A stretch of 48,855 bases of DNA, the filler included, from Sphacelaria rigidula (taxonomy: Eukaryota), in the NCBI GenBank assembly GCA_964200075.2. It is 3 parts of 3 records of this genome, joined end to end, with 100 filler letters (N's around TTAATTAATTAA, not from the genome) between each part and the next. Parts side by side here need not be neighbours in the genome. Positions count along the whole stretch, not along the records: positions 32,639 to 48,855 come from CAXNAA020001440.1; 2 more parts are not named here. The stretch is one strand, 5' to 3'. The translations under genes and the position numbers were made by a program. Under the pieces are notes generated by a model. That model was not told the DNA's origin. It made no database searches and saw nothing but the letters and a program-made list of their open reading frames with translations. This document shows, in pieces, positions 1,030 through 45,789 of the stretch (positions are counted from its first letter, which is position 1; every line of letters starts with the position of its first letter).

Positions 1030-1601
1030 GACATTTGCTGCGATAGCCCCCCCAAAAAAGACGTGGCTGGTTTGGAAAGGCAAAATCTACACGTCAATCG
1101 AAATGAAATAAGCCGAGCATAACGAGCAGCTGATGTGTGGAATCTGCATCATTTTCACTTGAAAACTGGATGAGATTTAGGCCGATTCCACAAATGACCA
1201 CCTCCGGCGGTTGAAGGGTTGGGATTGATGGCGTAGGACAAAGCACCCTGTGACTACGAGAGCTCCAGAATAGTCTCGGTGACTCTTTCTGCCATAGTTC
1301 CCCCCCCCGAAAGTGGCTGGTTTGGAGAAGCAAAATCTACACGTAAATCGAAATGAAAGAAGCTGGGCACAAAGAGCAGCTGATTTGTGAAATCGGCATC
1401 ATTTTCACTTGGAAAATACGTAAGCCGAGCACAACGAGCGGTTGGGAAGTCCCACTTTTGGGTTCGTTTTCGCCAATGTCACCCATATATAGCGCTTCAT
1501 GCAGCCTGAAACCAAACATCAGGCGCCCTGTGGCCCTTTTCTTCGTGAAACTTTTAGGCTGGTTTGGGGGACGGGGGCAGGGGGGTATCGCAGAAAGCGT
1601 C
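1030..1601. mobile_element. MITE family 2 (TIR GAC..TTTCTRCGATAGCCCCC), with an internal ~120-bp duplication
   Basis: TIRs GACATTTGCTGCGATAGCCCC and GGGGGTATCGCAGAAAGCGTC; 1041-1165 is repeated at ~1291-1416. Related copies lie at 10516-10769, 16322-16452 (inverted) and 32432-32470. Confidence 0.65.
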
Positions 1602-3278
1602 CGGTGCCCCAGTGTTTACTATCTGCCTTCATCGACCGGTGACGGTTGGGGTTAGGGTTAGACTGTGGTTGGGTCAATCTATCAAAGATTTGGATATGTT
1701 ATGGAGAGAGAAACTGACGACAAAGTTGAACCCTTTGCCGGCCTCTCGTTAAATAGGAATCACTCTCAGGTTTCTTTCAAGCAAAAATAAACAGTGGTGG
1801 TCACTGGCACGAAAGGGGGGTCAAACGGCTGCGAGCATCACTGGTACCGGAGAGACATGCAGGTTCCGTTGCATTGACTGGTGAGGAGAAAGTCACTGGT
1901 GCAGGGGAAATAGGGTGCGTTACATATTCGATGAGGGGAAGGTCAAACGGCTCGGCACGTCACTGGTGGTGGACGTTCCGCGCGGTAAATTCTCAGGAGA
2001 AGAAAGAATTGAAGAATGCCACGGGAATAGGTTGCGTCAATTCCGAGAGGGAAACGTGAGATTCTGGTGGCTCGTGAAGTCACTGGTCCCAAAGTAAATT
2101 CCGCCTAGAGAAGGGCAAATTTCGCGAAGGGAAACGGGAAAGTGCGGATACAGAACGAATTCTCCCCCAAAAGGCGGGAGAGCAGGAACGGAAGAATGAT
2201 ATAGTGGCTGCTGGTGCGTAGGACTCCGGAGGAATGCTTCTCAGGCATCGTCACTGTTGCACCTGCGTGCCGGAATTCGAAATGCGGATAAACCTAATGT
2301 ATAATAGGGGTGAAAGGTTTTTGGCGCTTCGCGACACCGCTCGAGGGAGCGTTTCCCAAGGCAAAGGATACTGAGGAGTGTTCCTACCGGCATCAGCCGT
2401 CGCCCACATACAGGAGTGCTCAGAGGCGAAGATATGGTTCAGAGATAACTCTTTTCACACGAAGACGTTATTCAGAGATAACTCGTTCTCCTTTTTTCGT
2501 CTCTTTGGACTTTCAGTCATCGTCGAGACGATAAAACCCGACGGAAAAAGAATCAAAACGAGGCAGAAGTTACTGATCCTGCACAACGAAAAAGCTACGC
2601 AGATTCCGCCGTCTCATGAGTGCTTCGAGAACAGACGAAGGGGCCAACGCGCATCGAGACAGGGGAGTTACGATAGCGCACCTACTGCATTGTTGAAATT
2701 GCTACGGCCACGGCAATGCAGCACAGTGCTGCTACTGAGGGTAGTTGAAAGTACATCACAGTGCAATGCAGTAGAGTAGAGTGCGATGCAAGCGAGGTAT
2801 TACAGTGCCGCGTACAGATAGGTCAGAGTGGGGTACGTACTGTAACAGACGGTAGCTACAGAGGAGCATATGTGGCCGATCACTCCGACCAAAAACTCCA
2901 CGTTAAGCCACGTCATATCAGCTTCCACTATGAACGTTTTGGCGTACACTGTGAAGTTTCAATGCTTCCACTCTGCACTATGACTCTATGCTCAGAGCTT
3001 TTCTTGCCGAAACTCTCTAATATTGTTTAATATTTCCAGTACATAGTTACTGATCGATAGCCCCGTGGCCTTTCCGACTTTCCCACTGCCTCGCCGTTTC
3101 ACAGGGAGGTCACGAACACGATACTGACTGTAGCTTGAACCGCCATACACGTGCAGGCAGTATCGTCTTGTTCACTATGCGGGGTCGTTGCTTGGCATGG
3201 GAGCGAGGGATGGGTAAATCGTATGAAGCTGCTTGCTCTTGTGCAACGAACAAACTTTCCAAAAAAGCCGGTTTTGCT

Positions 3279-16953: not shown

Positions 16954-17340
16954 CATCCCCCTGAAATCAGTACATACATATTTCGCAGGTACCTATACAT
17001 GGAGAGAGCAACAGCATCGTGATGACGAGCAGACGGTACCGTCAGTTCCTGTTGTGGGTCATCGTGCTTTTCGACATAATGGAATGCAACGCTGTACGTT
17101 TTCTGCGCATTTTTGGAACCTGCAGACCTGCCCTGCTTGTTGTAGATGCAGATATCAAGTATGGCAGGAAAAACCATCATCCTCGGTGTGGTTTCTACTC
17201 TCTGTGTGCGGCATTGTGGTGGGTCGCTCATCGAACACATGATCAGTCAGACCGTTCATTCTGTGTGGGACGCACAAAACACATGAGATGGACCCCGAAA
17301 AAATGGGAATAGATTTCTTTGATGGGAATGGCAATATTCC

Positions 17341-18092
17341 TTTTGGGGCCAGAGATGAGGCCAAAAGACAGCTGAGCCCCCCCTTCCGCCCGCGCCGTTT
17401 TTTTTTACTCGACCTCGTTTCTTCCCCGGCCTCGATTTTTCTAATGTCATTGATCTCCCCTCCCCCTCTCCCCCCGGTTGCTCTCTAAATTTGATGGTGC
17501 TCGGGGTTGTGCGAAGTCGTACCTCCCATGGGGTGTCATACATGAACCACTTTGGTTGGGGTTTTCCGTGTTGTCTGCCGTCTACTTTCGAAGGTAGTTT
17601 TTTTTAGGAGGAGAGTAGATGCGTGCCGCAGGTTGAAAGTACGGCACCCTTTGCGAAACGATAACGTTCACGTTGGTAAGGACCATACCAGAAGTTTGCG
17701 AGGCTACTCGAAGGTACCTCAGCGGGGACCATTTGCCGCAAACTTCACCTTCTATCCATCATAATATTGTCGGCTCATGTAAGGCTCCTCACACCCTACC
17801 GTTCGGAGCACGCCCACATTCCTATGATGTACCTTCGAAGAAAGACGGCAGACAGCATAGAAAACCCCAGCAACAGAAGGTGGTCCAAGTAGAGTGCCAT
17901 ACGGGGTATGACTTTGCACAACCCCGAGCATCGTGACAGTAGAGGGGCGACCGGCGGCGGGGGGGGGCTGGGCCTTGCGGGTACAAAACAAAACTCGAGG
18001 CCAGGAGAAAATTGACGTCGGGTAAAACAAACACGACGCTGGCGAGAGGGGGGGTAAGATACGTTTTGGCCTGATTTCGAGCCCCCCCAAAT
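17341..18092. repeat. Foldback element, ~270-bp imperfect inverted arms
   Basis: GGTGCTCGGGGTTGTGCGAAGTCGTACC...GGGGTTTTCCGTGTTGTCTGCCGTCTACTTTCGAAGGTA vs TACCTTCGAAGAAAGACGGCAGACAGCATAGAAAACCCC...GGTATGACTTTGCACAACCCCGAGCATC. Confidence 0.8.
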
Positions 18093-18277
18093 CTCGTCCT
18101 CACACAACACGTTTGTTGCCATCTTTCAGGATTCCATGTTCAAATTTGAACAAAGGTCAAAGAAAAAAGAAGTGTTGCTTGTACAACTGTAGAAATCTCC
18201 ACATTGCCGAACCTCACATCTGCAGCAGTACCAAAGATACCAAGAATATATTGTAGTACCCCAGGACCTCCTCCCCA

Positions 18278-18391
18278 TTAACCCTTTGACCGCGAGGGTA
18301 CATGGGTCACCTGCTGAATCGGCATCAATATTCACTTGATGAGAATATTCATCATCCAGACGGACTACCCGCACCCCGGTCGAGGGGCTAA
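18278..18391. mobile_element. piggyBac-like MITE copy
   Basis: TTAACCCTTTGACCGCGAGGGTA...GAATCGGCATCAAT...CATCCAGACGGACTACCC...GGTCGAGGGGCTAA; it lies ~0.7 kb upstream of the Myb-like start codon. Confidence 0.75.
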
Positions 18392-19103
18392 GCTTCTCTA
18401 CCGACTGATTGATGATCCTCGACGCACACCGTATGTAGTGCATCCTGGTCGAGCGTTTAGTAGCCGAGGAGGTTTGTACCGTATGCTGATGACTTGTTGT
18501 ACAACCGGTACTGACTGGAAGGTGTGCTGCAAACGTATGTCTCATGCACAGGGGCTGTCTCGGTCTGTCTGCGTACTGTGCGGTCTGTACACCACAATCA
18601 ACGTTTGGTTGTTTGGACTAGTTGTGCCGAGGGTATCCGATACAACTGTTACTTAGAAGACTTGCGTGTATACAGGCACGTTCCGTGCGTTCGCGGTCGA
18701 GTTAGGTGCTTATGCCCTCATGATATGTGGCCTGAAAGTCGAGCATCGCATAGAAAAAGATACCAGATACGAGCCAGATACCACCAAAGGAAGGGACATT
18801 ATCCATCAATGGAACATGACTATTGGTAGATGACATACATTGCGTTTGAATGTGAGTATTAACTGTTGAAAAAATGAATTCCCTCTCCCCAAAAAGGTAA
18901 AAAAACAAAAAATATAAAACAAAAAAAAACGGAAAAGGCCAAGAAAACGTGCTTCAACTACTGTACTGTACTGTAGTGTTGTACTGGTATTGACACGGGT
19001 GTAGTTCAAACGCAACAGGGACGCGATCTATAGGAGCAACGAGAAGAGTGCCTGCCGCCGCTGTGTCCCCAGCACCTGAATTTCGGCTGCCTTGGGGCCT
19101 GGC

Positions 19104-22100
19104 ATGGAAGTTGCGGCACTGGTGTCCACGAGACACGAACAACTTTTTCATCGCTACCCCACTGAAGCATCGCAGCAACGTAAGAGTACCTGTAATCAGA
19201 AAGCGCCAGACTTCCGCTCAACAAGCAACACAAGTGGCAGAAGAAAGGCTGCCAGCCAGGCAGCTGCGGTTTACCTGTCGGCCGTTGTGCGGTCGCGTGG
19301 GCTTGAGAGCTCGCTGGCTTCTCCTCCGCTTGCCGAAGTGGCAGGAGGACAGGCGGAAAGGAGCACAACGCCTAGAGTCATGAAGGATGAAATCTTAACG
19401 TCTGCGGCGGGGGCTACACCATCAACGGAAGGTGTTGGTGGTGGGTGGCAGCCTGTGCCGTCGCCCGATACAAAAGCAACTGCGGAGGTACCCTCAGAGG
19501 AACCGGCTGCGCCGCCACCGCCACCCCCCGAAACGAGCAGTCAACTTGACCCAAGGGCCCCCGTGCGCAAGGGGAAATGGACACCCGAAGAAGAGGTGTA
19601 CACTACCAGGATCATCAACGATTTCAACAAGGGGTTGCTGCCGCTGGCTCCTGGCACAACTCTCCGTTCGTACCTGAGCGAGAAGTTGAACTGGTGAGGG
19701 TTTTTTAGTGTACGCATATGTAGCTTGTACTACAACTACAGTAGTACTTTCACACCCCAAATGATTTACACTTGTTTCGGCTGGGCCTATGTTCTGTGTT
19801 TGTCGGATGTCTTACATTTGGGGTTGTTGCATGGCTGTTTGTCCGGTTATGTGCTTTGCATGTGTGGTGTGGAGATAAGGGTCGGATATAGAAGGTATTG
19901 CATCATACCAACTGCTGTTTGAGGATGTGATGGGCGTGTCATGATGGGTTGATGTGTCTTGGCAGGATGAAGTTGCGCCCCCTCGCCCACCTCCTCCTCC
20001 CGCGCCCCTGGTTCAATCTGTACGTTGCATAAACGGATCCTAATTTTTGAGGGAAGGCAAAAGGTTGACCATGATTTTCTTCGAGACACGGAGCAGCATT
20101 TACGTTGCAGTTTTCAATGTTCGTTGATTGTTTCGCGTTTTTTTGCGGGGGCGGGGTGCGGGGTGCGGGGTGCGGGGGGCGAGGGGTCCTGTATGACAAG
20201 GTCGGGACATCAATCCGTCTTGGGCCATACCTGCAACTTGATAGGTCGTGGCAGCTGATGCACACATGTTTCTTGGTTCCCCACCACATTGGCCCATCTG
20301 CCCGATGGACGATACCAAGGCTTTTGAGTTTGTTTCAAATGTACCTTACGGTAGTGTAGTACTTCACTGAGTGTCGGTTGCAGACTGGAGCCATGCACGA
20401 TGCGGGCTGTTGGTGCCAAGTCGCAGTGTAGTATACAGGAGCATTCAGTGCACGATGGGACGACAATCGTTACTGTCGGCACTGTCTTCGTCCGTGAGGT
20501 GAATGCCCACGCTGCCTCCACACCCAGGCTTCTGGCACACATAAGTGACACCACCGCCAACCCCCGCTACCGTTTCCGACGTCTGTTGCACACGTATCCC
20601 TTCAACGTACGATCGGGCTAAACCGCAACATCGACAACAGCGACCCTATGCGCATCACCAAAAAATTCGCGGGCGCGTCTTGCATTGGCAAGCGCGTCTT
20701 CATGCCGATTGAGCTCACGCCGGAGAATGTCGAAGAGACAGCCCGCAGCCGCCGTGATCTAGAGGAGATGGCACGCAAGTTCCACATCCGCCTGGAGAGC
20801 ATGCGCCCAGGCGGTGGCGGCGGCAACAGTGGCCGCTCGAACTCTGGATCTTCCTCGAAAGGTGCGTCGAGTTCCAATTCAAGCCCTAAAACACGGAAAT
20901 CTTCGGCGTCAGTAGCCGGCACAGGGGGGGGCGGCGGCGCCGCCTGCGGCACAGCCAAGGCCAGCCAGGGAGGGGGCGGCGCGCGACGCGGAGAAATCGT
21001 TGCTCCTTCGCTCTCTGGCGCAGGGGCCGAAGGGGATGGGGAAGGGGGCGTGCGGCGTGAGAGGTCGCCATCCCCGGGAGCACACGGCCCGCATTCAGCG
21101 TGCGATGACTCCGCCCCTCACCCAGAAGGCTCGCCCAGCCGCCGGCAGGCCAGCTCGTGGGAGGAGCGAGATGACGCTGACGGGGAAGGGTACGGCCATT
21201 ACGATCCCATGGACCAAAGTCTAGACTCGGATGCGAGCTCGTCATCTTCTAGGGCCACGGGATACCCTGGACGGGTGCAACAACCGCCACCGGGCGGCGG
21301 GGGTGGGGGTGGTGGATATGGCGGGGCGGCGGTCGCTGCCGCCACTGCAGAATACAGCATGCACGGAGACCGCCGCGATCATGTCATGGGGTATGACAGG
21401 TGCCAATGGGACGAGCGCCTGAGCGGCGTCGACGGGGCAGTCGGGGGCGGGGGAGTTGAGCGCGGGGGGGGTCGAGACGGCGGGGTACCAGATGATGTGA
21501 AGGCCAGGTACGGAGGGCAACATCAACAGCTGGACCGTCAGGCTCAACCGCAGCAACATGGGCATGATGGATTCTACGGCAACCAGAGTGGTGCGCGGCG
21601 CGCCTACAACTTCCAGCTTGGCTCCGCTCCTGCCACTGGAGGCGACACCGATGCTGTCGAAAGAGAGGGGGAAGATGAGGATGGAGAGACAAGTACGGGA
21701 GCGGGGTTAGGGCGCATGTCACCTAGGCCAGCTTCACCCCGAATGGGGTCGTGGGCGCGCCCAAGCCTGCCGGGGAGTTTAGGTCCCGTCGGCGGGGCGA
21801 CGAGGAAGCCGCCTCCTTCGGCGCTCTCTGCGACCGTGATTAGGGATGGAGCTGGCGGGGGCAGTGGGGCTCGGTCCCCTACCTGGCCTTTACCCAAGGT
21901 CATTCCGGAAGGCTCGGAGATATCTGACCACGATGCGGGGGGGCTGTTGATAGGCTTTTTCCAAAAAGTACACGAGAAGGCGCAAACGGCTGCGGACGAG
22001 CTGGGGGAGGTAAGGAGTGGAACTGATCTGGTTTTGCTCTCATGTTTGAGGTTGCAGTTCGATGCTTGTGTGCTACTTGGATTGATTGTTGTGCGTCGGT

Positions 22101-35936: not shown

Positions 35937-38900
35937 TCACGCCTCCCCCATCGCTGTCGCCGATGCCCCTGCCCCGGCCTTCTTCTTCTTTTTGTTCTTC
36001 TTCCTTCTTGATACGGTGTCCAATATTGTTTGGGTTTCCGCGTCCACAGACTTATCCGAGCTGAACGAAGCGGGGATGAACTCGATTCCCGTAATCTGTT
36101 ACGAGCCCAGAAAAACATCCACATATTAGCTCGGGCGGCGCACAGAGATTACGGTGACTACACTGCCCACAGCTCAGCAACCTTTTGATCACGGAAACTA
36201 TCGTGGGTGACAGCCACGAGGAACATCACGATACCCGACTCGAGTCGAGTATCGCTTGTAGACTCAGGTATTTGTATTCCGCCTCTTCTTCGGGTGGCTG
36301 ATGAAGGGATCGAAGGCTCACCCGAGTAACATTCGACTCGACTCTCGGAATACACATGTTTCTCCTTCCGAATTCCATCATCCGACACATAACAACTATT
36401 TCATCATTTCCGCACAAGTGTCCTAAATCCAACAGTCACGCAATTGTAAGATCTTCGCAAGTACATTGATGCTGAAACGAGAGCTCCCGCGGCTAGTGAC
36501 CAAAAATCCACGCGCATTATCCAGGGCGCCAATATTTCGTAAAATCATATCACGGAAAGATCCGACGAGGGAGTTGACCGTTGGCTCTAATAGTTCTTCG
36601 GTCAACTCGAATGTGTATATTCTGCATAGGTCGGTCATGCACAGACCAAGATCGTTACTCTCAAATAAACCGTGATGGGCATCAAAAAGCTTCATCTCAT
36701 CATTTGTATACACATACTCTCGAGCTTCACGCATGCGAAGTTTTTCATACACCGCACCGGATACATGAACGCGATACATACACAGAGCTGAAGGTAAGAG
36801 TATCTTGGCCCCTACCTTACTGGTGCCTGACGCCAGGAGGAGAACGGTGCACTTGAAGTGCGCGACGGTATCTCCCCTGTGAGCAAACATGACTGGATAG
36901 CTCGTGAGAAGCTCGTGAGATGCACACTCCACAACTCCCAATCGTGCCTGTCGAGGAAATGGGAGAAAATATTTCGAGAGCGAGAAATGATTTTTCACGT
37001 TTACGTCACGCGATAAACATGTTTTTACACAATTGACGCATCGTCTTCATATCCCGGAGCTCTCGGCCAGGTCAATCTGTACCATGTAAGTACTACAGCA
37101 TAATGTGTGTTTAGCCCGCGACTAAAAAAAAATGTGCCGACCCACAACTAATGAGTATACTAATCCCGCACTCGCAATGCGAGCTCCAATCCCCATGATC
37201 ACCTGTTTTTCATCGTCTAACGCCCGTAAGCTAAACGGCATACTCGGGAACCGCTGGTTGACCTCATTGTAGAGGTACCTGCAGGCGGGGTGGCGACGGA
37301 AGGCGAAAATTTCGAACAACAGTTCCATGAGTGAGAATCAGCTACCGTTTCGGAGCGACCCGAGACGAAAAACATGTAGAAAGGCATGGTCCTTCGACTT
37401 TTCCGCATGTGTGGCGCAACATCAGATTACATGAGCCGAAAGTATGGATACGCCAGATTTATCCTGGTCATCCATGAAACCGGATGTGCTGAGCACCTGT
37501 ACCATATACGGACAATGAAAATGTCACGGTCAGGACGCCAGCAATTTAGAGACAGAATCTCACCGGGACGCCTTCATCTTGAGATGATAGCTCTTGTTGG
37601 GGTCCTTCTTGAATACTGTTGTCCGCACGTCTTGTTCTCGCACCTTACCGTCACCGGAACTTACGAAGACGTTCACCGCGTATACCTGCACGGCATATTT
37701 CGTCCCGGATTTCAGTAGGAAGTTTCGGCAACGAAGTGGAGCTTTCCGACTACAAAATCATCATATTCGAATGAATCGATGCGTCCCGGTACTACTGTAC
37801 CCACTCCGAGTGGTGAGCCAAGCTCGAGGTGGCCTCCGGAATTGCAGCCATCCGTGTCCACTCAAGACAACATGAACAAAACCCGCTCGAGGGGGGAAAC
37901 GATGTAGCTGCTTCCCGGCTTTTTAAAGAGAAACAACATTATAACATGTTCACCAGTGATTTAGTAGGCACTACCCGTGAGGTCCGGGCGGCACCCGTGG
38001 AATAGGTGAGCGGTTGTCTGGCCGCTGCCGGCGCGACGCAGCCTTGCACTGGTGCTTTTCAGCTCCAGAGAGGCTGCGGCCGGCGGTTGATCTAGGCGTT
38101 GGCGATGCGTTTGTGCTGGCACGATGGGAAGCAATGCCCTCACGGGTAGTGTTACATGTCAGCTTCAACACATCTACACGCCAGGAGAGAAAGTTGACAA
38201 CTAAGCAGGGATGAAGTACGACTCAAAATATCTCTTTGTTGGGGGGGCTACTTATGGAAGTGGAACGCCGTATATTTCTGTAGCGGCAAATCATTTCACT
38301 GCATCATCCCACGGACTACACGCGGGTTGCCTAACGACTCCAGGACCCCTGGACGAGAAAGGAAAGGCGCCACCCTTCGGATCCGCTTCCCTGACCCAAG
38401 ACAGAAACGACGATTCTCGAGGTTTTTCGCCCTACAAAACGTTTTGACCTCATCATGATCAAAGGTTACACGTTTTGTTTTGGGCGGCGGGAAATAAGTG
38501 GGAAATGCTTCGTTCCCTGTTTGCCCACAGCTCACCGAAGTGTACACGCCGAAACCGAGAAAAATCTCGATAACGATGGGGGGCACCCTTTTTACATGCT
38601 TGGTTGAGTAACCGCAGGATATCTGGTAAAAAAGTGACGCAAAATCTTGCACTAATCGATGAGGTTGTAGATGCTGCGGTACACATGAGGCTGATGGGTG
38701 GGGGAGTATACGCTGCATCTTTTTTGCATGTAGCCCTGTAAATATTGATCTCATATTCCTACAAGGACACAGCGCGTCGGGTTTTCGCCGGACCAGGCTT
38801 CATGACCCCATGGAAGGTGGTGACAAGTCCGTCATAACTCAACGTTTTCTCGGACGAACTTTGTTTTGTTCAACCAAGATATTCCACTCCTAGTTTGGGA

Positions 38901-41900
38901 CTCCAGTCAAGATGTACTCGCGCACCTCGTTCGCCTCGAAAGTAACCTCCTTCTCTTTGTCCTCGCTGTTGAGGGCGATTGTCTTTCCGCCGAGGCCGAA
39001 CCTGCATGTTGAGAGAAAGTGAAGCAGCGGCAGCACAGAGGCCGTCATCCTCAGAAACCGCACCACGGTCATCTCAAGCATGGAAACAATGCGCTCAGCT
39101 TCATGTAATCCAGTAAAAACCCGCGACTTGCTGACAAGTTGTTTCCCATGGCGAACAAGGGAAATATGTGAAAGTGTCTGCATGAAGAACCTTCTGCGTC
39201 ATTTACGCGCCAACGTGGAGCTAGGCGAATTTTGAGAGCTGAAAAGCCCCTTGCTGTACCCGTCGAGACGATCCCAGGTCACCTGCGCAATTTCAACATA
39301 ATCGTGATTTTTTTGCCCGAATGTGCGATTCCCTCGGACCCCTCTATTTCCTCGGAGATCAGTTGAGCCCAACAGATACTGCGACTCAGCACTTTTGTCA
39401 GCGCGTGAAGAGATACAGAAGCTCCCAAAACGCAATCTTCCACATCTTCATCCGTATCTGTAATACGAAGAGGCTCAAGGCATCATTACTCATTTCAACC
39501 TCATAAGCCATCACAGTGCAGATGCCTACGGGACGACGCACACACCTCAACCCAATCCCCAACTGGCGGGCTTCATCTTCGCATGTGTCGCGGGTTCAGG
39601 CACTTTGTTATTGGAACGAACCGTTTGATTCCTGACGGTTTCAGCTCATTGTTGCCAAGTATCGCGTAACAAAAACCTGTATCCCGTCCGTCAACACCAC
39701 ATGTGGGTGGCATTCGCGAACACAACAGCGTTTGTCTACTCGCTACCGGAGCTACAGTCAACCTCGTCGTTCCTTCCAGCATTGTCCGAGTGCCGCAGCG
39801 GGTTTTTGGTCCAGGTGACTGCGACAGGCTTGTGGAGGACGTCCACAGTAAGTGGAGGACGTCGATAGTGATGAGTTCTTGCGGTAGTCTTCACGAATTT
39901 GAACTTTCGAATCGCAGTTACAGGAGATGAATTCGTCCCCGACGAGGTTTGTCGGGCACGAACCCATCCCCCGATCACCCTCAAATTGACAGGCTCATCA
40001 TCTTTTCTTATATGCAAACGTAGCTCAGCACTGGATGATGCACGCCCTCTTGAATATAACGCTCATTTTTATCCGTCAGCATCGTGCTTAAATCAAGACG
40101 CGATGTTTCCCATCCCCCGATGAACAAAGAGCGGCTGCAGTACTTCAGAGGCGTGAGGGATTCCTGTTTACTCACCGTGTAAGCTGCTCCATTTGTGTCC
40201 CCGCGATGAATTTAACGCCGTACGCGTCTGCTACTTTTTTCGTAGCCTCCGTCACCTGTGGGCCAAACCGACGACACACGTGACGACGCTCGGTGTTCGT
40301 GATACGATCATTACGCACTCGCTCGATCTATACCATCAGGTACATCACGTCGAAAATCCTGCTGATAAGTGTGCGTGATCTAGATATAAGATTACCCACA
40401 CCGCGGTAGGAGAGTTGACAATGGGCGGAGGACGGAAAAGAAGCATGCATCAACAAGACTCTAATGAAACGCGAAGAATTTCTCGGTTCACCGAATTTTT
40501 TTCTTCCCCTCATTTATCATTGCAGTTTCTTGGCTCTACAGGGACGGGAGGGAGGGCCACCCTGGATGGTAGGGTGCTTTTTTCTCGACACCACGAAGGG
40601 CAAGCAACGGGGCTGTCGCACCGCACGATACTGTGGCGAGAAAACAACCCAGACAAAACAGGCAACATGTCGAACTTTCTACTGCACCGAATACTCGGCA
40701 ACGTGCACATGTTCACCAGTGATTTAGTAGGCACTACCCGTGAGGTCCGGGCGGCACCCGTGGAATAGGTGAGCGGTTGTCTGGCCGCTGCCGGCGCGAC
40801 GCAGCCTTGGACTGGTGCTTTTCAGCTCCAGAGAGGCTGCGGCCGGCGGTTGATCTAGGCGTGGGCGATGTGTTTGTGCTGATACAACAGACGTCGTTGT
40901 CCTTGCGGGCAAAGGCGACGTGCTTGACAGCCCAACCTCATCAAAACGCCAAGCTATTTCGACTTTCAAAACTGGAACTTGCCGGGCAAGATATACACAC
41001 CTGTTCCACCACCAACGAGAACGACAAACGGGAGTGCAATATTCCCGTCATCCTTTTGCTCACAACACGGAACCGCTCCCGGTGGGAGTGATTTCCGTAA
41101 CCGTATAACCAACGACCAGGAGCAGCGAATACAATCAAGACAGAGTTCACGACCCGAAACATCCCGGCTGAGCAACTGGGGGGGGAAGGAACAAGGATAT
41201 GCACTGGACGAACCTGTGTGTTTGTATTCCCCGCTTTGATCGTCTTGGCCGCCACCTCTGCTGCGTAGTATGCAGCAAGCACAACGTCGGCTTCGACTCC
41301 CGTCACAGCACCCGCGACTGTGGGATCCATGCCCACCTTAATTGTGTGAGCCACGACCGCCATGTAATAGTCCACGTGGCAGCCCAGCTCGATCTTTACC
41401 CAATCGCCCGCCTTTAGGGGCTCCTACTTTCGGCCAAGGACCATCCGTTGCAACATACGATGAAGGCATGTTGTGCAATGAGGCTCACGTTTCCATCAAC
41501 TGTCCTGGGCAAGAGGAAACTGCTCAACAAAAGATGAGTGCAGTATCAACGGATCGTGACATCAGGGTGGTACGAGCGAGCAAACTGACTGAACTCATTT
41601 GGTCGAGGCGTGTCTGATTTACATTCATGTATACCTCCGCCTCAAGTCAGAATCGAGAGAGCATTTGTTTGAAGTGACTTCTCTGAACGGTCAACCCAGT
41701 CAAGTTTCTTGTGTGACAGTCAGCTTAGACTCCAGAAACGGTTGAACCAAGGTCACAACGTTGCAGGGTTAGCATCAAAACATTATTTTCACCACGATAG
41801 CGTCCATTTCTTCACCATGGGTATCCACCGTGTACGACGGGCTGAGGAGCATGGCTGAAATACGGTGATAATATGGGAGCCAAACGTCCGTCAGAGGTTC

Positions 41901-44900
41901 AGTAGCTGCTTCGACACAATACGGCCAAAAGTACGGTACATCTACAGTACGCCGAGAGGAAGCACACAGCATCACATAACCGTGTTGTGCCACGTAGAAT
42001 GCATGACTCCTCACGGCGTTTGGCCGTGGCGACAGAATGAAAACACGTCCTAACCCAGCCACGACAGGCAAGAAAAATCACAACTATCTTCCATCACATA
42101 GCCAGGTCAGCATACGAGAACCCAAACAAAACAAGGCATGGCACGTACAGTAGTGGGCGGTTTGACCACTCATTTGGTGGCATTTCGTGACTTTTTCGTG
42201 ATTGGCAATTTGTTGGGCTTCTTTCGCTCGTTACCTTTCACCACATCGGGGATCTGAAGATGTTTGTACCCGCTCCACATTCCAAAACACAAATGTAGTC
42301 CATGAAAAGTGACCGACGGGCTGACCGGTTATCGGGGATACTGCCACGTCTCAGCTCAGGTCCTCACTCTTCTGTATTTTCGGTCAATCGAGCCCGTGCC
42401 GATCATCTTCATGACGAAATGTTTAGTTTCATTTTTTCGAATCTTCACCTACTCATTGAACTGGAGCCAAAAAACTGTGTTTCACGGTCGATGACACGCT
42501 ACTGATTGAAGGGGTAATTACTTGTATCGCCCGTTAATATCAGTCAACACTGACTTGGGCACGGTGTTTCGATGATGATCCATTTTTTATACCAAAATCC
42601 ACCGACGCCAGTAATTTCGACATCTATCGAAGAGTATCAAGAGAGGAAAGTCAAAAAGCACCCCTGAATAGTTGGACCGCCCACTACTGTATCAGGGTTC
42701 TTGCAACATGTTTGGCGGGGGAGGAAGCCGGAAAGACGTGTCAAGGCCCATGGAAACAGCGGGGCTCACTGCTCCAGCCAACTCCCGTACGTCAACGCCG
42801 TCAGAGCAGGCGCAAACTCAAACACTCAAGCTTCGCGTTTCCTGGCAAGAGACGCGGAGCGAACGCGAGAGCACCGCACTCCTATTAATTTTCTGGGCTA
42901 GCGGACAGGCGCTCAGTACTTGCTCGCCACGCTGGCAGAACCGTACATCCCCTGTCCTTCTTCTCGCCCCTAGTCATCCCAGAGGGAATCAACTTGGGGT
43001 TGTGTCGAGAAAAATCCAGGAGAGCACTGAGATCTCTGCTGCGGGCAAGCTATCTTGAGAACCACGGATGTCCACCCAGGTGGTTCGCGAATTTTACTTT
43101 CGCGTGTTACGCTACGGATCAAGTATTTTCATCCCATTCCTCGGGATACACATCCAGTCGGTACCAACCCAGCAAAAGAGTGGCTGACCTACTACAGACG
43201 GGGGTACTACTCAAAGTCAATCACAAAATCTTTGTGCGGGTCCTCGGAAAATTCGCCTGGTTGACTCATCGATCATATTCTAGAGGGTACTTTCATCGAG
43301 AAAAAACACCGTTAGTTGTGGCTCCGTCACGGGTGCGGCAACAGTTACTCCGGCCAATTGTTGTATGACGCCACAGGTCATGAAGGGTATACATCAAGAA
43401 ACCAGAAGAGTAGAAATATATATATCAAGCACCGCGATCATTAAACCTCATCATGTGTGGTGTGGCTCAGCACATATCTCAGGGGAGAAACACTCAAGTT
43501 ACACGCAATTTCCAATTTCACTTCAAAATTCACCATCCTCACGTGTTTGGATGCCTCCGACTCGAGGGGGCTGTTGTTCATGACGCACTCGTTGACAGAT
43601 ACGCAGGTCGGGAACGCGATGCCTTTGGCCACTGCGACACCCTTGACCTTACTTCGGAAGATCTGCGAGCATCTCTGTACTCTCGAGGATGAGAAGGGGA
43701 AGATGAGGGGAACGGAGGCGCAGCGGGGAAATCGTGGAGGGGCGGGAAAGGGGTAGAACAAGAATGACTTAGTGAACGCGATAAAAAGACGATAACCAAT
43801 TGAACGGATGCGACTTCCGTGGCCATGTTTTGAATCGAAGCAGCCTCATTACTCGCTTCCATCGGGGGCAAGGTAGAATCACCGTGGCCGCTCCAAGTGG
43901 ACGTTGTACACATTTCCGGGGTGCCTTAGACATGTTCGCAGCGGGGTGAGGGGAGGAGTGGGGGGGGGGGGATAGCCTCAGATTCTCCTTGGGGGCAAAC
44001 AACGAATTGCCAGAATATGGGCCGAGAGTGACAAGCTGGCATTCGGGTTTTCTCGATGGCCTCGGCATCAACATCCAATCTTGGATATAACGTCCTGAGA
44101 TGTTATCACGGTCGTCGCATCATTTTGGGATGAGAGCGATCATACCGCAAATGGATACAGAGTTGATGGCTCGACACCACGGCAACGGTTGGACCGGGTC
44201 GCCCGGCATTTGTACCAGCGATGTTATTGATTATATATGTGAAGCAAGTCATACCGGCTTTCATCCATGCCCAGCATTTCAAACGAAGAGGGTTTCGTGC
44301 GGGGGAAAGATGTGATTTGAAGATATTGCCACGGGCGCATACAAGACGTTCAAAAGCAGCTCCAGAGGTCGCGAGCGTCACCATGAGCTGCCAACTACAA
44401 AACTGGTCCTGGCAAGCTCGGCTCATATACGTATGCAGTGACGGTGGACCAGCGTTGGCGAAGCTTAGATCATTCACTCGTCATGTTCACGAGGGATTGA
44501 ATATGGTCATGACTAGATATCACGTGCTCTTGATTTCAGGTCATCAAAGTACTGTAAAAGCTCTCTTCTTCGAGAATGATGACACAAGTCATGCGCAACA
44601 ACGTAACTTTCCGGTCTGTGGCTCGTTCCGGGTCAGTTCAAATTCATGAGGCTAGGGCAGTAGGCGATCTCCGCATGGTTTGCAGAGCTCATTGGTCATC
44701 GTACCATCCGTCACACATGGATACCCTCGAGATGCACACTACCGGCTACGCACTACAACTGACTTCCCTCACCTGCACAATGACGGTGTCCCCAAACTTG
44801 CAAAGGTCATTAATCTTGGCTCCTGGCACGCACATCTGGACCACACCCTGCATGGTCAAGTTGGCAATCTTGGCGGCCTCCTGGTACTTGGTGGTCACGT

Positions 44901-45789
44901 CCGAGTTTGACAGATTCTCTACTGCTCCCGCCTCCGCCTCTTCATCCTGTTGAAATGGGGAGATTCATCCGGGACTGTGTGAGGTGATATCTGTACCAAA
45001 ACAGGCTGTACAATCATCAAAGACTGTACTGTTGTGGCTGCACGGTACTGCTGTACAGCCAGAGGGATGTCAGTCCATGCATGAATCATACCAGTACAAC
45101 TGGCAGCTACAGATGAAATGGGGATCGACAAGCTACCACAATATCTCGTCATCGCAGCCACCTCTGGGTTGCGAACATCATTTTCACGACCAGTTTCGAT
45201 CGGCAGTCGAAAAGAACGTGCGGAGGTAGGTGCGGGGCGAGGGAAACGTGAATCATGCTCAGGTCAGTTGCCCAACTTACTCTTGCCGTTTTCACTGAAC
45301 CCAGCCTGACCCGTCTGTCAGGAAAGGGGGGCTTTACCAGGGCTGTCACACGATCTGCTGCAACCCTCAGTCAAGATGGCGCTTCTCTGGGATGAAGAGG
45401 GACCTTGATCCACATTCATGACCAAGTACGATAGAAGCTTCGAAATACCACATACCATGCGGCGAGCGGCAGGAGCGCCATCACTTCAGGTGCATGGCAC
45501 AAGGCGCCTGGCTTGCGTCAAGCGGAGAACAGGAGCACGAGAAGAGCCCCCAGTACAAAAAATATGCGGCCTGAATTGCTCCAAACAACGCGACATCAAA
45601 ATTACTGCTGTGTACCGAGATGATTCGAAATAAAAGCATGGTGCCAACAGAGCACACGACACGTGCAAGCTTTCATCACGACCCTCATCGGTACAATAAT
45701 AATTCTCCCATCATGGAGGGAAGCACTGCCCCCTTAGTATGTTGTCGCACCTCTTGCTCCTCCATTGGGTCTTCTGCTTTGGCAGCCAT
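35937..45789 (-). CDS. PA2G4: Proliferation-associated protein 2G4 / EBP1 (M24/MetAP2-fold ribosome-associated protein), complete, 10 exons, 399 aa
   Basis: Manually spliced exons, all GT-AG with consistent phases: 45751-45789, 44773-44946, 43543-43674, 41214-41423, 40176-40255, 38926-39001, 37564-37685, 37203-37278, 36816-36947, 35937-36095 (1200 nt). The translation has EBP1-type motifs: LSNSDVTTKYQEAAKIAN, KGIAFPTCVSVNECV, PLKAGDWVKIELGCHVD, KAGNTNTQVTEA, FEANEVYAVNVFVSSGDGK, RTTVFKK, YHLKMKASR, RFPSMPFSLRAL, ARLGVVEC..HELL..YPV, VAHFKCTVLL and a Lys-rich tail RRKKNKKKKK. Confidence 0.95.
37944..38184 (-). ncRNA. Candidate U17/snR30 (SNORA73)-like box H/ACA snoRNA, copy A, in PA2G4 intron 6
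   Basis: Sense to the host gene. Order on the - strand: 5' hairpin, middle hairpin with GAAA loop, H box AGACAA (38019-38014), 3' hairpin with m1-like UAUUCCA (38004-37998) and m2-like AAAUCAC (37962-37956), ACA box (37949-37947) plus 3 nt. A near-identical second copy lies at 40707-40953. Confidence 0.8.
40707..40953 (-). ncRNA. Candidate U17/snR30 (SNORA73)-like box H/ACA snoRNA, copy B, in PA2G4 intron 4
   Basis: Same architecture as copy A: H box 40782-40777, m1-like 40767-40761, m2-like 40725-40719, ACA 40712-40710. I count 3 substitutions versus copy A over ~175 nt. Identity stops exactly 3 nt after ACA. Confidence 0.8.

What the first reader, a model, noticed from the sequence alone, without database searches (positions are those of the whole stretch)
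40707..40953. Second intronic copy shows structure-preserving divergence, a signature of RNA-level selection
The two copies differ at only 3 positions over ~175 nt. Similarity ends precisely at ACA+3, the expected mature 3' end. The apical part of the 5' hairpin is completely different in sequence between copies (+ strand A: AAGCAATGCCC-TCAC-GGGTAGTGTT; B: ACGTCGTTGTCC-TTGC-GGGCAAAGGCGACGT), yet both fold and both close with the same GGCGT/ACGCC, GATG/CATC and GCTG/CAGC stems. Both copies are sense to the host, one per intron (introns 4 and 6). Multi-copy intronic U17 in ribosome-related host genes is known in vertebrates, and EBP1 is a ribosome-binding protein, so PA2G4 may be an unreported U17 host (inference).
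Basis: partly seen in the sequence, partly recalled or inferred. Interest (0 to 1): 0.8.

Follow-up and report, generated by a model that had tools for sequence, protein, structure and literature searches.

The report
Intronic H/ACA snoRNA pair, not U17

Summary
Two minus-strand copies (37944-38118 and 40707-40881) share 172 of 175 nt. Identity stops exactly 3 nt after an ACA. Each lies in sense orientation in its own intron of a spliced PA2G4-like mRNA.

The upstream flanks have diverged, yet both pair with the same three core segments: 13 of 13 nt in each copy, against 6 of 1500 random window pieces. Structure-preserving divergence is therefore supported.

The U17 label is not supported:
- Rfam gives no SNORA73 or snR30 match.
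- The m1/m2 look-alikes match only 6 of 9 and 5 of 7 letters of motifs that are near-invariant from yeast to Tetrahymena.
- U17-style pairing to 18S is not above chance.

The only Rfam match is snoR143, at 17.2 and 13.9 bits against a cut-off of 50. The copies share with it an exact 15-nt hinge holding the H box, the pocket letters, the closing pairs and the spacing to ACA. A pattern built on those letters fetched 61 relatives from metagenomes, scoring 30.7 to 179.5 bits.

Across nine representatives, the only shared canonical target is one U of 18S rRNA. Pseudouridylation there is inferred, not shown. The published prediction for snoR143 (U2 snRNA) remains a rival. Overall: an ordinary kind of gene, a new distant member, with moderate interest.

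The parts
40707..40881 (-). Copy B, the 175-nt core shared with copy A: 3' strand of the first hairpin, a possible box AGAUCA, the second hairpin, the hinge holding H box AGACAA, the third hairpin with its pocket, and ACA plus 3 nt
   Evidence: Repeat. Fold. Rfam snoR143 at 13.9 bits, E 5.8, over 40707-40839. Exact 15-nt hinge at 40774-40788.
40882..40953 (-). Copy B, diverged 5' strand and apex of the first hairpin. Its inclusion in the mature RNA is inferred.
   Evidence: Pairs with 13 of 13 nt of core CAGC, CAUC and ACGCC, against 6 of 1500 random pieces. Flank-shuffle z -1.58, 26 of 500.
37944..38118 (-). Copy A, the 175-nt core, differing from copy B at core positions 11, 19 and 72
   Evidence: Repeat. 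Differences. Rfam snoR143 at 17.2 bits, E 8.5, model 1-169. Hinge at 38011-38025.
38119..38184 (-). Copy A, diverged 5' strand and apex of the first hairpin. Its inclusion in the mature RNA is inferred.
   Evidence: 13 of 13 core nt paired. Flank-shuffle z -2.77, 2 of 500.
40774..40788 (-). Invariant hinge GCGGCCAGACAACCG with H box AGACAA (copy B). The same hinge in copy A is at 38011-38025.
   Evidence: 2 exact matches in the window, 0.07 expected. Identical to the snoR143 consensus block and to the metagenome relatives, although there the search pattern itself required it.
40722..40773 (-). Third-hairpin pocket of copy B: left loop UAUUCCAC, upper stem GGGUGC.GCCCG/CGGGU.GUGCCU, right loop ACUAAAUCACU. 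The lower stem UCACC/GGUGA abuts ACA.
   Evidence: Fold. Model R1 aligns 40722-40766. Closing pairs and 16-nt spacing to ACA.
40254..41211 (-). Host intron holding copy B
   Evidence: Spliced contigs of runs X1 and X4 join 40253 to 41212 with GT..AG ends on the minus strand.
37684..38923 (-). Host intron holding copy A
   Evidence: Spliced contigs of runs X1 and X4 join 37683 to 38924.
41212..41423 (-). Host exon of the PA2G4/EBP1-like gene
   Evidence: PDB PA2G4 chains at E 3.8e-13. Pfam Peptidase_M24 at 19.5 bits, below its cut-off of 23. High-depth spliced contig.

Best explanation

Shown:
- The sequence, the folds, the intronic sense position and the splicing of the host.
- The likeness to the snoR143 family.
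- The complementarity of the pocket to 18S rRNA.

Inferred:
- The RNA is released from the spliced intron and trimmed to the RNP-protected ends, the 3' end lying 3 nt after ACA.
- The mature form probably has three hairpins, about 241-247 nt. The first hairpin is free to change sequence as long as it pairs.
- The 3' 175 nt are kept nearly identical between the copies, by constraint and probably by gene conversion.
- The third hairpin is a canonical pseudouridylation pocket. Its right loop ACUAA pairs with UUAGU of 18S rRNA. Its left loop (UAU)UCCAC pairs with GUGGAG(UG). One U plus one further nucleotide are left unpaired under the upper stem, 16 nt from ACA, where the H/ACA pseudouridine synthase would convert that U.

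The RNA is a distant relative of plant snoR143 and is not U17/snR30.
For: H/ACA anatomy:
- A hairpin, then the hinge with AGACAA (fits ANANNA), then a hairpin, then ACA plus 3 nt.
- Folding z -2.9 and -3.6.

Family:
- The only H/ACA match in Rfam is snoR143.
- It shares an exact 15-nt hinge; the window has 2 matches where 0.07 are expected.
- A pattern of that hinge plus UCCAC found 81 matches on 77 metagenome loci. Of these, 61 have the same third-hairpin layout, giving 31 distinct sequences.
- Of 12 such loci scanned, 10 gave snoR143 matches of 30.7-179.5 bits; 7 of them have matches above the cut-off of 50, and 2 gave none.

Structure across relatives (32 distinct sequences, the window's included):
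- The two pairs closing the upper stem are standard in 32 of 32 and 32 of 32, with AU, GU, GC and CG types.
- The lower stem covaries, for example pair 4 is AU in 20 and CG in 9.
- On the 29-row alignment, 82.4% of cells are paired against 74.3% in shuffles (0 of 500 as high) and against at most 57.8% when partners are slid.
- The right loop starts 14 nt from the box in 22, 15 nt in 6 and 16 nt in the window copy.

Target:
- In 18S, 5.8S and 28S from fetched, Rfam-confirmed rDNA, the only site with at least 3+3 contiguous pairs in guide topology is one 18S U. This holds for all 8 representatives.
- With 20 alternative pocket borders and two U2 genes added, that U is the only site shared by all 9 representatives, and it is top or tied top in 7 of them.
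- The window's guides reach 5+6 or 5+8 pairs. Shuffled guides reach that score in 18 of 2000 trials.

Relative's substitutions: the three listed for run X5 are structure-compatible.
Against: - Both copies fall far below Rfam's snoR143 cut-off (17.2 and 13.9 bits against 50).
- The 5' half of the Rfam alignment differs between the two copies, so it says nothing about the 5' end.
- A model of the third hairpin alone, built from 29 relatives without the hinge, ranks the two copies first but only at 11.5 bits, E 1.3.
- The relatives were fetched with a pattern that already required the hinge and UCCAC, so those letters are not independent evidence.
- RNAalifold predicted no structure on the MAFFT alignment.
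- No cognate 18S or U2 of this organism could be read. The 18S sequences used come from other eukaryotes.
- The target site lay inside the pattern used to fetch those 18S loci, so its universality is not shown here.
- The passages read on Arabidopsis 18S mention four 2'-O-methyl sites and no pseudouridine in helix 34 (PMC8351944). I did not map the predicted U to a helix. The site tables are in supplements I could not open.
- The published prediction for snoR143 is U2 pseudouridine 38 (PMC2685112).
- Expression of the mature RNA in this organism is not shown. The poly(A)-like runs X1 and X4 cover the introns only at depth 2-5.
Confidence: 0.62

Rival explanations
1. U17/snR30 orthologue. The loop of the third hairpin would carry m1/m2-like motifs that dock on expansion segment 6 of 18S and promote 18S processing without modification.
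For: - The left loop holds UAUUCC, the core of m1, and the right loop holds AAAUCAC, which resembles m2 (motifs from PMC7601244 Table 1).
- The three-hairpin layout recalls yeast snR30 with its internal hairpin (recalled, not checked).
Against: - No SNORA73 or snR30 match at E up to 10.
- Only 6 of 9 and 5 of 7 letters match motifs that are near-invariant in the 14 listed species, Tetrahymena among them.
- The spacing of the m2-like letters to ACA is 6 nt, not the invariant 7.
- Relatives conserve the distal pocket letters, not the basal ones.
- U17-style pairing to 18S is reached by 233 of 300 shuffles. The same scan finds GGAAUA and UGGUUU, 29 nt apart, for the true U17 motifs on a fungal-type 18S.
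Confidence: 0.04
2. A Cajal-body guide for U2 snRNA, as published for snoR143. The third hairpin would open three more base pairs, so that CUAC pairs with the branch-site recognition region and ACGGG pairs with UCUGU, directing a pseudouridine in U2.
For: - Chen and Wu predicted U2 pseudouridine 38 for Arabidopsis snoR143 through its second pocket, with human ACA45 as the equivalent guide (PMC2685112, passages).
- A review lists snoR143 among plant scaRNAs (PMC10473218, passage).
- The UCUGU stretch is present in a fetched U2 gene (L120).
Against: - The model needs the two closing pairs to be broken, yet they are standard in 32 of 32 relatives.
- The three letters after CCAC vary (AGA, GGA, GGG, GGU, ACG, AGU, AGG) while mostly keeping their own partner.
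- By my reading, GGU, ACG and AGU cannot pair with UCU, and CCAC, GUAC or CUUC replace CUAC in three relatives. This uses the recalled canonical GUAGUA motif.
- The spacing to ACA would be 18 nt in the window copy.
- No U2 site appears among the top four for any of 9 representatives. This is not a fair test, because both fetched U2 genes have unusual branch-site regions.
Confidence: 0.17
3. Copy B is a recent, functionless duplicate or a decaying copy, and the near-identity only reflects a young age or gene conversion.
For: - The copies differ at only 3 of 175 positions.
- Copy B scores lower than copy A on the Rfam model (13.9 against 17.2 bits).
- Copy B's first hairpin is less exceptional (z -1.58, 26 of 500).
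Against: - Flanks on both sides are unrelated, so this is not a simple recent segmental duplication.
- No target-site duplication or A-tail was found.
- All three differences lie in loops or in a G.U position of the folds.
- Copy B's own flank still pairs with all 13 core nt.
- A close relative's RNA contig matches copy B for 171 nt with 7 differences and runs 8 nt into copy B's own flank.
Confidence: 0.12

Closest known systems
snoR143 (Rfam RF01432), a plant box H/ACA snoRNA of 171 nt in Arabidopsis
   Same: - Exact 15-nt hinge with H box AGACAA.
- Left-loop UCCAC and right-loop (CU)ACUAA.
- Upper stem closing directly beside those letters.
- Lower stem abutting ACA.
- Total length of the conserved core is 175 nt, against 169 model positions.
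   Different: - Scores are 17.2 and 13.9 bits, against a cut-off of 50.
- The lower stem is 5 bp with entirely different letters.
- The pocket is larger (8 and 11 nt) and lies 16 nt rather than 14 nt from ACA.
- The second hairpin is a 60-nt G+C-rich hairpin, and a further 5' hairpin is likely.
- It is intronic in a protein-coding host. The plant-like loci instead lie beside snoR125-like genes, and the Arabidopsis gene is listed in a CDS.
U17/snR30 (SNORA73), the essential 18S-processing H/ACA snoRNA
   Same: - H/ACA class.
[quoted passage not shown]
- Partial look-alikes of m1 and m2.
   Different: - The m1/m2 letters are not met.
- The conserved letters are distal, not basal.
- The spacing to ACA is that of a modification guide.
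- There is no Rfam match.
- The predicted 18S site is not in expansion segment 6.
ACA45/SCARNA15, the human guide for the U2 position equivalent to the published snoR143 target
   Same: Named as the functional equivalent of snoR143 in PMC2685112.
   Different: No Rfam match of the window to it at E up to 10. The U2 pairing is not kept across the relatives.

Membership tests
box H/ACA snoRNA | Hairpin-hinge-hairpin-tail layout, with an ANANNA box in the hinge and ACA 3 nt from the 3' end | tested here: met
   AGACAA sits between the second and third hairpins. ACAUGU lies exactly at the end of the identity block. The true 3' end of the RNA was not mapped.
box H/ACA snoRNA | Internal-loop pocket whose top lies 14-16 nt from the box | tested here: met
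   16 nt in the window. Among relatives, 14 nt in 22 and 15 nt in 6 of 32 distinct sequences.
box H/ACA snoRNA | A stable RNA bound by dyskerin/Cbf5, Nop10, Nhp2 and Gar1 | not testable with these tools
   Only contigs were available. The intron is covered at depth 2-5 in runs X1 and X4.
snoR143 (RF01432) | Reaches Rfam's gathering score of 50 bits | tested here: not met
   17.2 bits (copy A) and 13.9 bits (copy B). Metagenome relatives form a graded series: 179.5, 103.3, 100.1, 96.3, 66.3, 66.1, 65.7, 60.1, 59.4, 56.2, 39.4, 39.0, 34.3 and 30.7 bits.
snoR143 (RF01432) | The conserved hinge block and pocket letters in the family's register | tested here: met
   15 of 15 hinge letters, UCCAC 9 nt later, CUACUAA, and both closing pairs standard.
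snoR143 (RF01432) | Detected by a model of the third hairpin alone, built from relatives | tested here: inconclusive
   The two copies are the top 2 of 4 matches, but at 11.5 bits, E 1.3.
U17/snR30 | m1 AUAUUCCUA and m2 AAACCAU on opposite strands of the 3'-hairpin loop | tested here: not met
   CUAUUCCAC (6 of 9) and AAAUCAC (5 of 7).
U17/snR30 | [quoted passage not shown] | tested here: not met
   6 nt lie between the m2-like letters and ACA. The letters conserved family-wide are the distal ones.
U17/snR30 | Complementarity to rm1 and rm2 of the cognate 18S | tested here: inconclusive
   On three non-cognate 18S sequences, pairing is not above chance (233 of 300 shuffles). The cognate 18S was not available.
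U17/snR30 | Match to the Rfam SNORA73 or snR30 models | tested here: not met
   No such match at E up to 10, and none at gathering score in the whole window.

The most novel reading that the evidence does not exclude
The snoR143 family may not be a plant U2 guide at all. It may instead be an ancient H/ACA RNA, shared by land plants, brown algae and other protists, that docks on one short stretch of the 18S rRNA at two places:
- through its pocket, on UUAGU-U-G-GUGGAG;
- through its invariant H-box hinge, on UUGUCUGG 12 nt further 3'. This is the only 8-nt complement of the hinge in about 6 kb of rRNA.

Such two-point docking would make it a folding or assembly aid as much as a modifier. In lineages where no U17/snR30 has been found, it could carry part of that role.
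Probability: 0.1. Interest if true: 0.7.

Novelty: new member of a known kind. Interest (0 to 1): 0.35.

Why it matters
- It corrects a tempting mislabel. This is not U17, so the finding does not identify U17 in this lineage.
- It extends a family so far curated only from plants to a stramenopile-like genome, where it sits in the introns of a ribosome-associated host gene. None of the five papers listed for 'PA2G4, snoRNA, host gene' is on that topic by title.
- It yields a testable alternative to the published U2 target of snoR143: one specific U of 18S rRNA. An Arabidopsis knock-out combined with pseudouridine mapping could settle this.
- The two copies are a clean small example of concerted conservation of an RNA core beside a hairpin that keeps only its pairing.

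Tried and rejected
- Phage collection search with copy B: no match, and irrelevant.
- Own genome: not held.
- RNAalifold on the MAFFT alignment of 29 relatives predicted 0 pairs. I then counted pairs on a structure I supplied and by distance from the box.
- RNAduplex of the hinge against rRNA does not pick the neighbouring site and is no better than shuffles (386 of 500). Only the exact 8-mer count supports the hinge idea.
- Sequence similarity of the 5' flanks is not significant on its own.
- Target-site duplications and A-tails: none convincing. One 7-nt pyrimidine repeat lies near copy A only.
- PA2G4 exons on the 77 metagenome loci: none found by tblastn, so host conservation elsewhere is not shown.
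- Pfam on five exon translations: one weak Peptidase_M24 match below its cut-off and four with nothing. The PDB search named the host instead.
- Run X6 (organism C) holds about 50-nt contigs of the core (40749-40802) with summed word depth above 1e5, against about 1e3 in exon bins. The tool warns that contig depth cannot rank parts of a gene, so I use this only as a weak hint of an abundant RNA in a relative. Its loose-end consensus for the right loop is thinly supported, and I did not build on it.
- Introns without raised depth in X1 and X4 are not evidence against the RNA.
- The two U2 genes fetched from contaminant contigs have atypical branch-site regions, so the U2 rival could not be tested fairly.
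- Supplementary tables of PMC2685112, PMC6793436 and PMC8351944, which would list Arabidopsis pseudouridine sites and guide pairings, could not be opened.
Full report
**1. What is there**

The window holds one direct-repeat family in 36000-45000: 37944-38118 (copy A) and 40707-40881 (copy B), 175 nt, 98% identical. The functional strand is the minus strand. Read on it, both copies end in ACAUGU, and similarity stops at that point. The three differences are at positions 11 (G/A), 19 (A/C) and 72 (G/C) of the 175-nt core. The exact 15-mer GCGGCCAGACAACCG occurs twice in the window, once per copy, where 0.07 matches are expected.

**2. Host**

Contigs of two RNA runs of the same organism join 37683 to 38924, 38999 to 40174 and 40253 to 41212. 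The ends are CT..AC on the plus strand, that is GT..AG on the minus strand, and depths are 840-2540.
- Copy A therefore lies in intron 37684-38923 and copy B in intron 40254-41211. Both are in sense, with one intron (39000-40173) between them.
- The exon 41212-41423 matches PA2G4 chains of the PDB at E 3.8e-13. Pfam gives only a sub-threshold Peptidase_M24 match.
- The next exon upstream ends at 43543. The exon at 44746-44964 has no in-frame start.

**3. Fold**

The 247-nt and 241-nt stretches fold into three hairpins, with z -2.92 and -3.61 against shuffles.
- The first hairpin is closed by GGCGU/ACGCC, GAUG/CAUC and GCUG/CAGC. UAGAUCAA follows it.
- The second is a 60-nt G+C-rich hairpin, followed by CC-AGACAA-CCGC.
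- The third has lower stem UCACC/GGUGA, left loop UAUUCCAC, an upper stem and right loop ACUAAAUCACU. ACA follows immediately.

**4.

The 5' strand and apex of the first hairpin lie outside the identical block.
- By alignment score the two flanks are not significantly alike. The local score of 17 is reached by 65 of 1000 shuffles and by 15 of 90 other window pieces. A global score is no better than shuffles.
- In both copies the flank nevertheless pairs with all 13 nt of the three core segments. Only 6 of 1500 random 72-nt window pieces do that with the same core.
- Both apices read CCC-GNRA-GG.
- No target-site duplication or A-tail flanks the copies.

Pairing has therefore been kept while sequence drifted. 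I could not map the 5' end. The Rfam alignment starts at the repeat boundary in copy A but at 40839 in copy B, so it is not informative on this point.

**5. Identity: not U17**

- Rfam finds nothing at gathering scores in the whole window.
- It gives no SNORA73 or snR30 match at E up to 10 around either copy.
- U17/snR30 is defined by m1 AUAUUCCUA and m2 AAACCAU. These are near-invariant in the 14 species tabulated, Tetrahymena included (PMC7601244, passages). [quoted passage not shown]
- Here the look-alikes match 6 of 9 and 5 of 7 letters.
- A scan for U17-style pairing on three 18S sequences is reached by 233 of 300 shuffles. The same scan recovers GGAAUA and UGGUUU, 29 nt apart, for the true motifs on a fungal-type 18S.

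**6. Identity: a distant snoR143 relative**

- The only H/ACA match is snoR143 (RF01432): 17.2 bits, E 8.5 for copy A and 13.9 bits, E 5.8 for copy B, both far below the cut-off of 50. On its own this is weak.
- The alignment does contain 15 of 15 identical hinge letters that include the H box.
- A pattern made of that block, a 5-11-nt gap and UCCAC found 81 matches on 77 metagenome loci. About 20 look bacterial and are chance hits. The other 61 have the same layout downstream, giving 31 distinct sequences.
- Of 12 loci scanned with Rfam, 10 gave snoR143 matches in a graded series from 179.5 down to 30.7 bits. Seven of the loci have matches above the cut-off, and 2 (L028, L054) gave none at E up to 1.
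- The family thus grades away from the plant seed, and the window's copies sit at the far end.
- Caveat: the pattern forced the hinge and UCCAC, so only the remaining features are independent.
- A model of the third hairpin alone, without the hinge, ranks the two copies first in the window but only at E 1.3.

**7. Independent features shared with the relatives**

Counts are over 32 distinct sequences, the window's included.
- The two base pairs that close the upper stem directly beside CCAC and ACUA are standard in 32 of 32 and 32 of 32 sequences. The types are AU 22, GU 9 and GC 1 for the first pair, and GC 31 and CG 1 for the second.
- The right loop begins ACUAA in 18, ACUAU in 7, ACUGA in 4 and three other forms in 1 each.
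- The right loop starts 14 nt from the box in 22 sequences, 15 nt in 6 and 16 nt in the window. Three outliers come from uncertain box calls.
- The lower stem abuts the box and covaries. The window's five pairs use letters different from the plant consensus on both sides.
- On the 29-row alignment with my structure, 82.4% of cells pair, against 74.3% in shuffles (0 of 500 as high) and at most 57.8% when partners are slid. Eight of 12 pairs show a change on both sides, a count that 31 of 500 shuffles reach.
- RNAalifold alone predicted nothing on that alignment.

**8. Likely function**

With the pocket defined by those closing pairs, a canonical guide would select 5'-UUAGU-U-N-GUGGA-3'.
- I fetched eukaryotic rDNA that contaminates prokaryote assemblies (41 loci). 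Six of six tested are SSU and/or LSU rRNA by Rfam.
- In one 18S, one 5.8S and one complete 28S, the only site with at least 3+3 contiguous pairs is one 18S U: nt 1294 of the L102 SSU. This holds for all 8 representatives.
- With 20 alternative pocket borders, a second 18S and two U2 genes added, that U is the only site shared by all 9 representatives, and it is top or tied top in 7 of them.
- The window's guides make 5+6 pairs on 18S with GGAGC and 5+8 on 18S with GGAGU.
- Shuffled guides reach the window's score somewhere in the rRNA in 18 of 2000 trials.
- Three protist-like relatives extend the left-hand pairing to 7 pairs.
- Limits: the target site was part of the pattern that fetched the 18S loci; the organism's own 18S was not available; and no pseudouridine at this site is documented in what I could read (supplements closed).

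**9. The published alternative**

Chen and Wu predicted that Arabidopsis snoR143 guides U2 pseudouridine 38 through its second pocket (PMC2685112, passages).
- That pairing needs the closing pairs to open.
- It is not kept in relatives whose letters after CCAC are GGU, ACG or AGU, or whose right strand reads CCAC, GUAC or CUUC. This argument uses the recalled canonical GUAGUA motif.
- The two U2 genes I could fetch have unusual branch-site regions, so the direct test was not fair.
- I keep this rival at about 0.17.

**10. Hints from relatives' RNA**

- A metatranscriptome contig (run X5) matches 40719-40889 with 7 differences in 171 nt. The three differences listed are a G.U to A-U change in the upper stem, an A-U to G.U change in the lower stem, and a bulged base.
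- Run X6, from another relative, holds the 54-nt core at very high summed depth. Contig depth cannot be compared between parts of a gene, so this is only a hint that the RNA is abundant there.

**11. Verdict**

- The RNA-level-selection reading is reasonable.
- The U17 label is wrong.
- The element is a new, distant member of a known kind: a box H/ACA snoRNA of the snoR143 lineage, in a new host and lineage.
- It carries a testable 18S target that differs from the published U2 prediction.

Noticed in passing
window 40774-40788 and 38011-38025 (minus strand); L102 SSU nt 1306-1313: The invariant hinge contains CCAGACAA. Its complement UUGUCUGG occurs once in about 6 kb of rRNA, 12 nt 3' of the predicted target U. 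Of the 41 fetched 18S loci, 32 carry that 8-mer, 5 read UUGUCUGC, 3 read UUGUCAGG and 1 reads CUGUCUGG. An RNAduplex test was not significant.
   Followed up: partly
window 40722-40732 (minus strand); L093 SSU nt 1292-1300: The basal part of the window's right loop (AAAUCACU) is complementary to AGUGAUUU of the GGAGU-type 18S, directly 3' of the GUGG that the left loop pairs with. This gives a third complementarity to the same 30-nt stretch of 18S. It cannot form at the same time as the canonical pairing.
   Followed up: no
window 41122-41170, minus strand: A weak SNORD26-like match (17.8 bits, E 3.4, cut-off 44) lies in the same intron as copy B. By eye it lacks a clear D box and is probably chance.
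   Followed up: partly
L005, L004, L020, L032 (metagenome loci): In plant-like contigs the snoR143 genes lie a few hundred bases from sub-threshold snoR125-like box C/D matches, and several contigs carry two to three snoR143 copies. That is a clustered, non-intronic organisation, unlike the window.
   Followed up: no
L120 (and L121, L123) 1501-1692 minus strand; L119 1501-1690: U2 snRNA genes on eukaryotic contaminant contigs score 144-151 bits. In place of the usual GUAGUA branch-site recognition motif they read GUAUUA and GUAGAAAUAA.
   Followed up: no
One 18S among them has a group I intron (L113).
   Followed up: no
window 37787-37943 joined to 40707-40926: One contig of run X4 joins copy B's 5' part to copy A's 3' flank across the shared 175 nt, skipping 2763 nt at depth 3.7. 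It is most simply an assembly switch within the repeat, not a transcript.
   Followed up: no
window 38770-38906: Runs X1 and X4 show very high summed depth (about 17,000-20,000) in a bin inside the intron that holds copy A, with many loose ends at 38764/38765 and 38798/38799. This suggests a short repeat or an unrelated abundant sequence of about 35 nt there.
   Followed up: no
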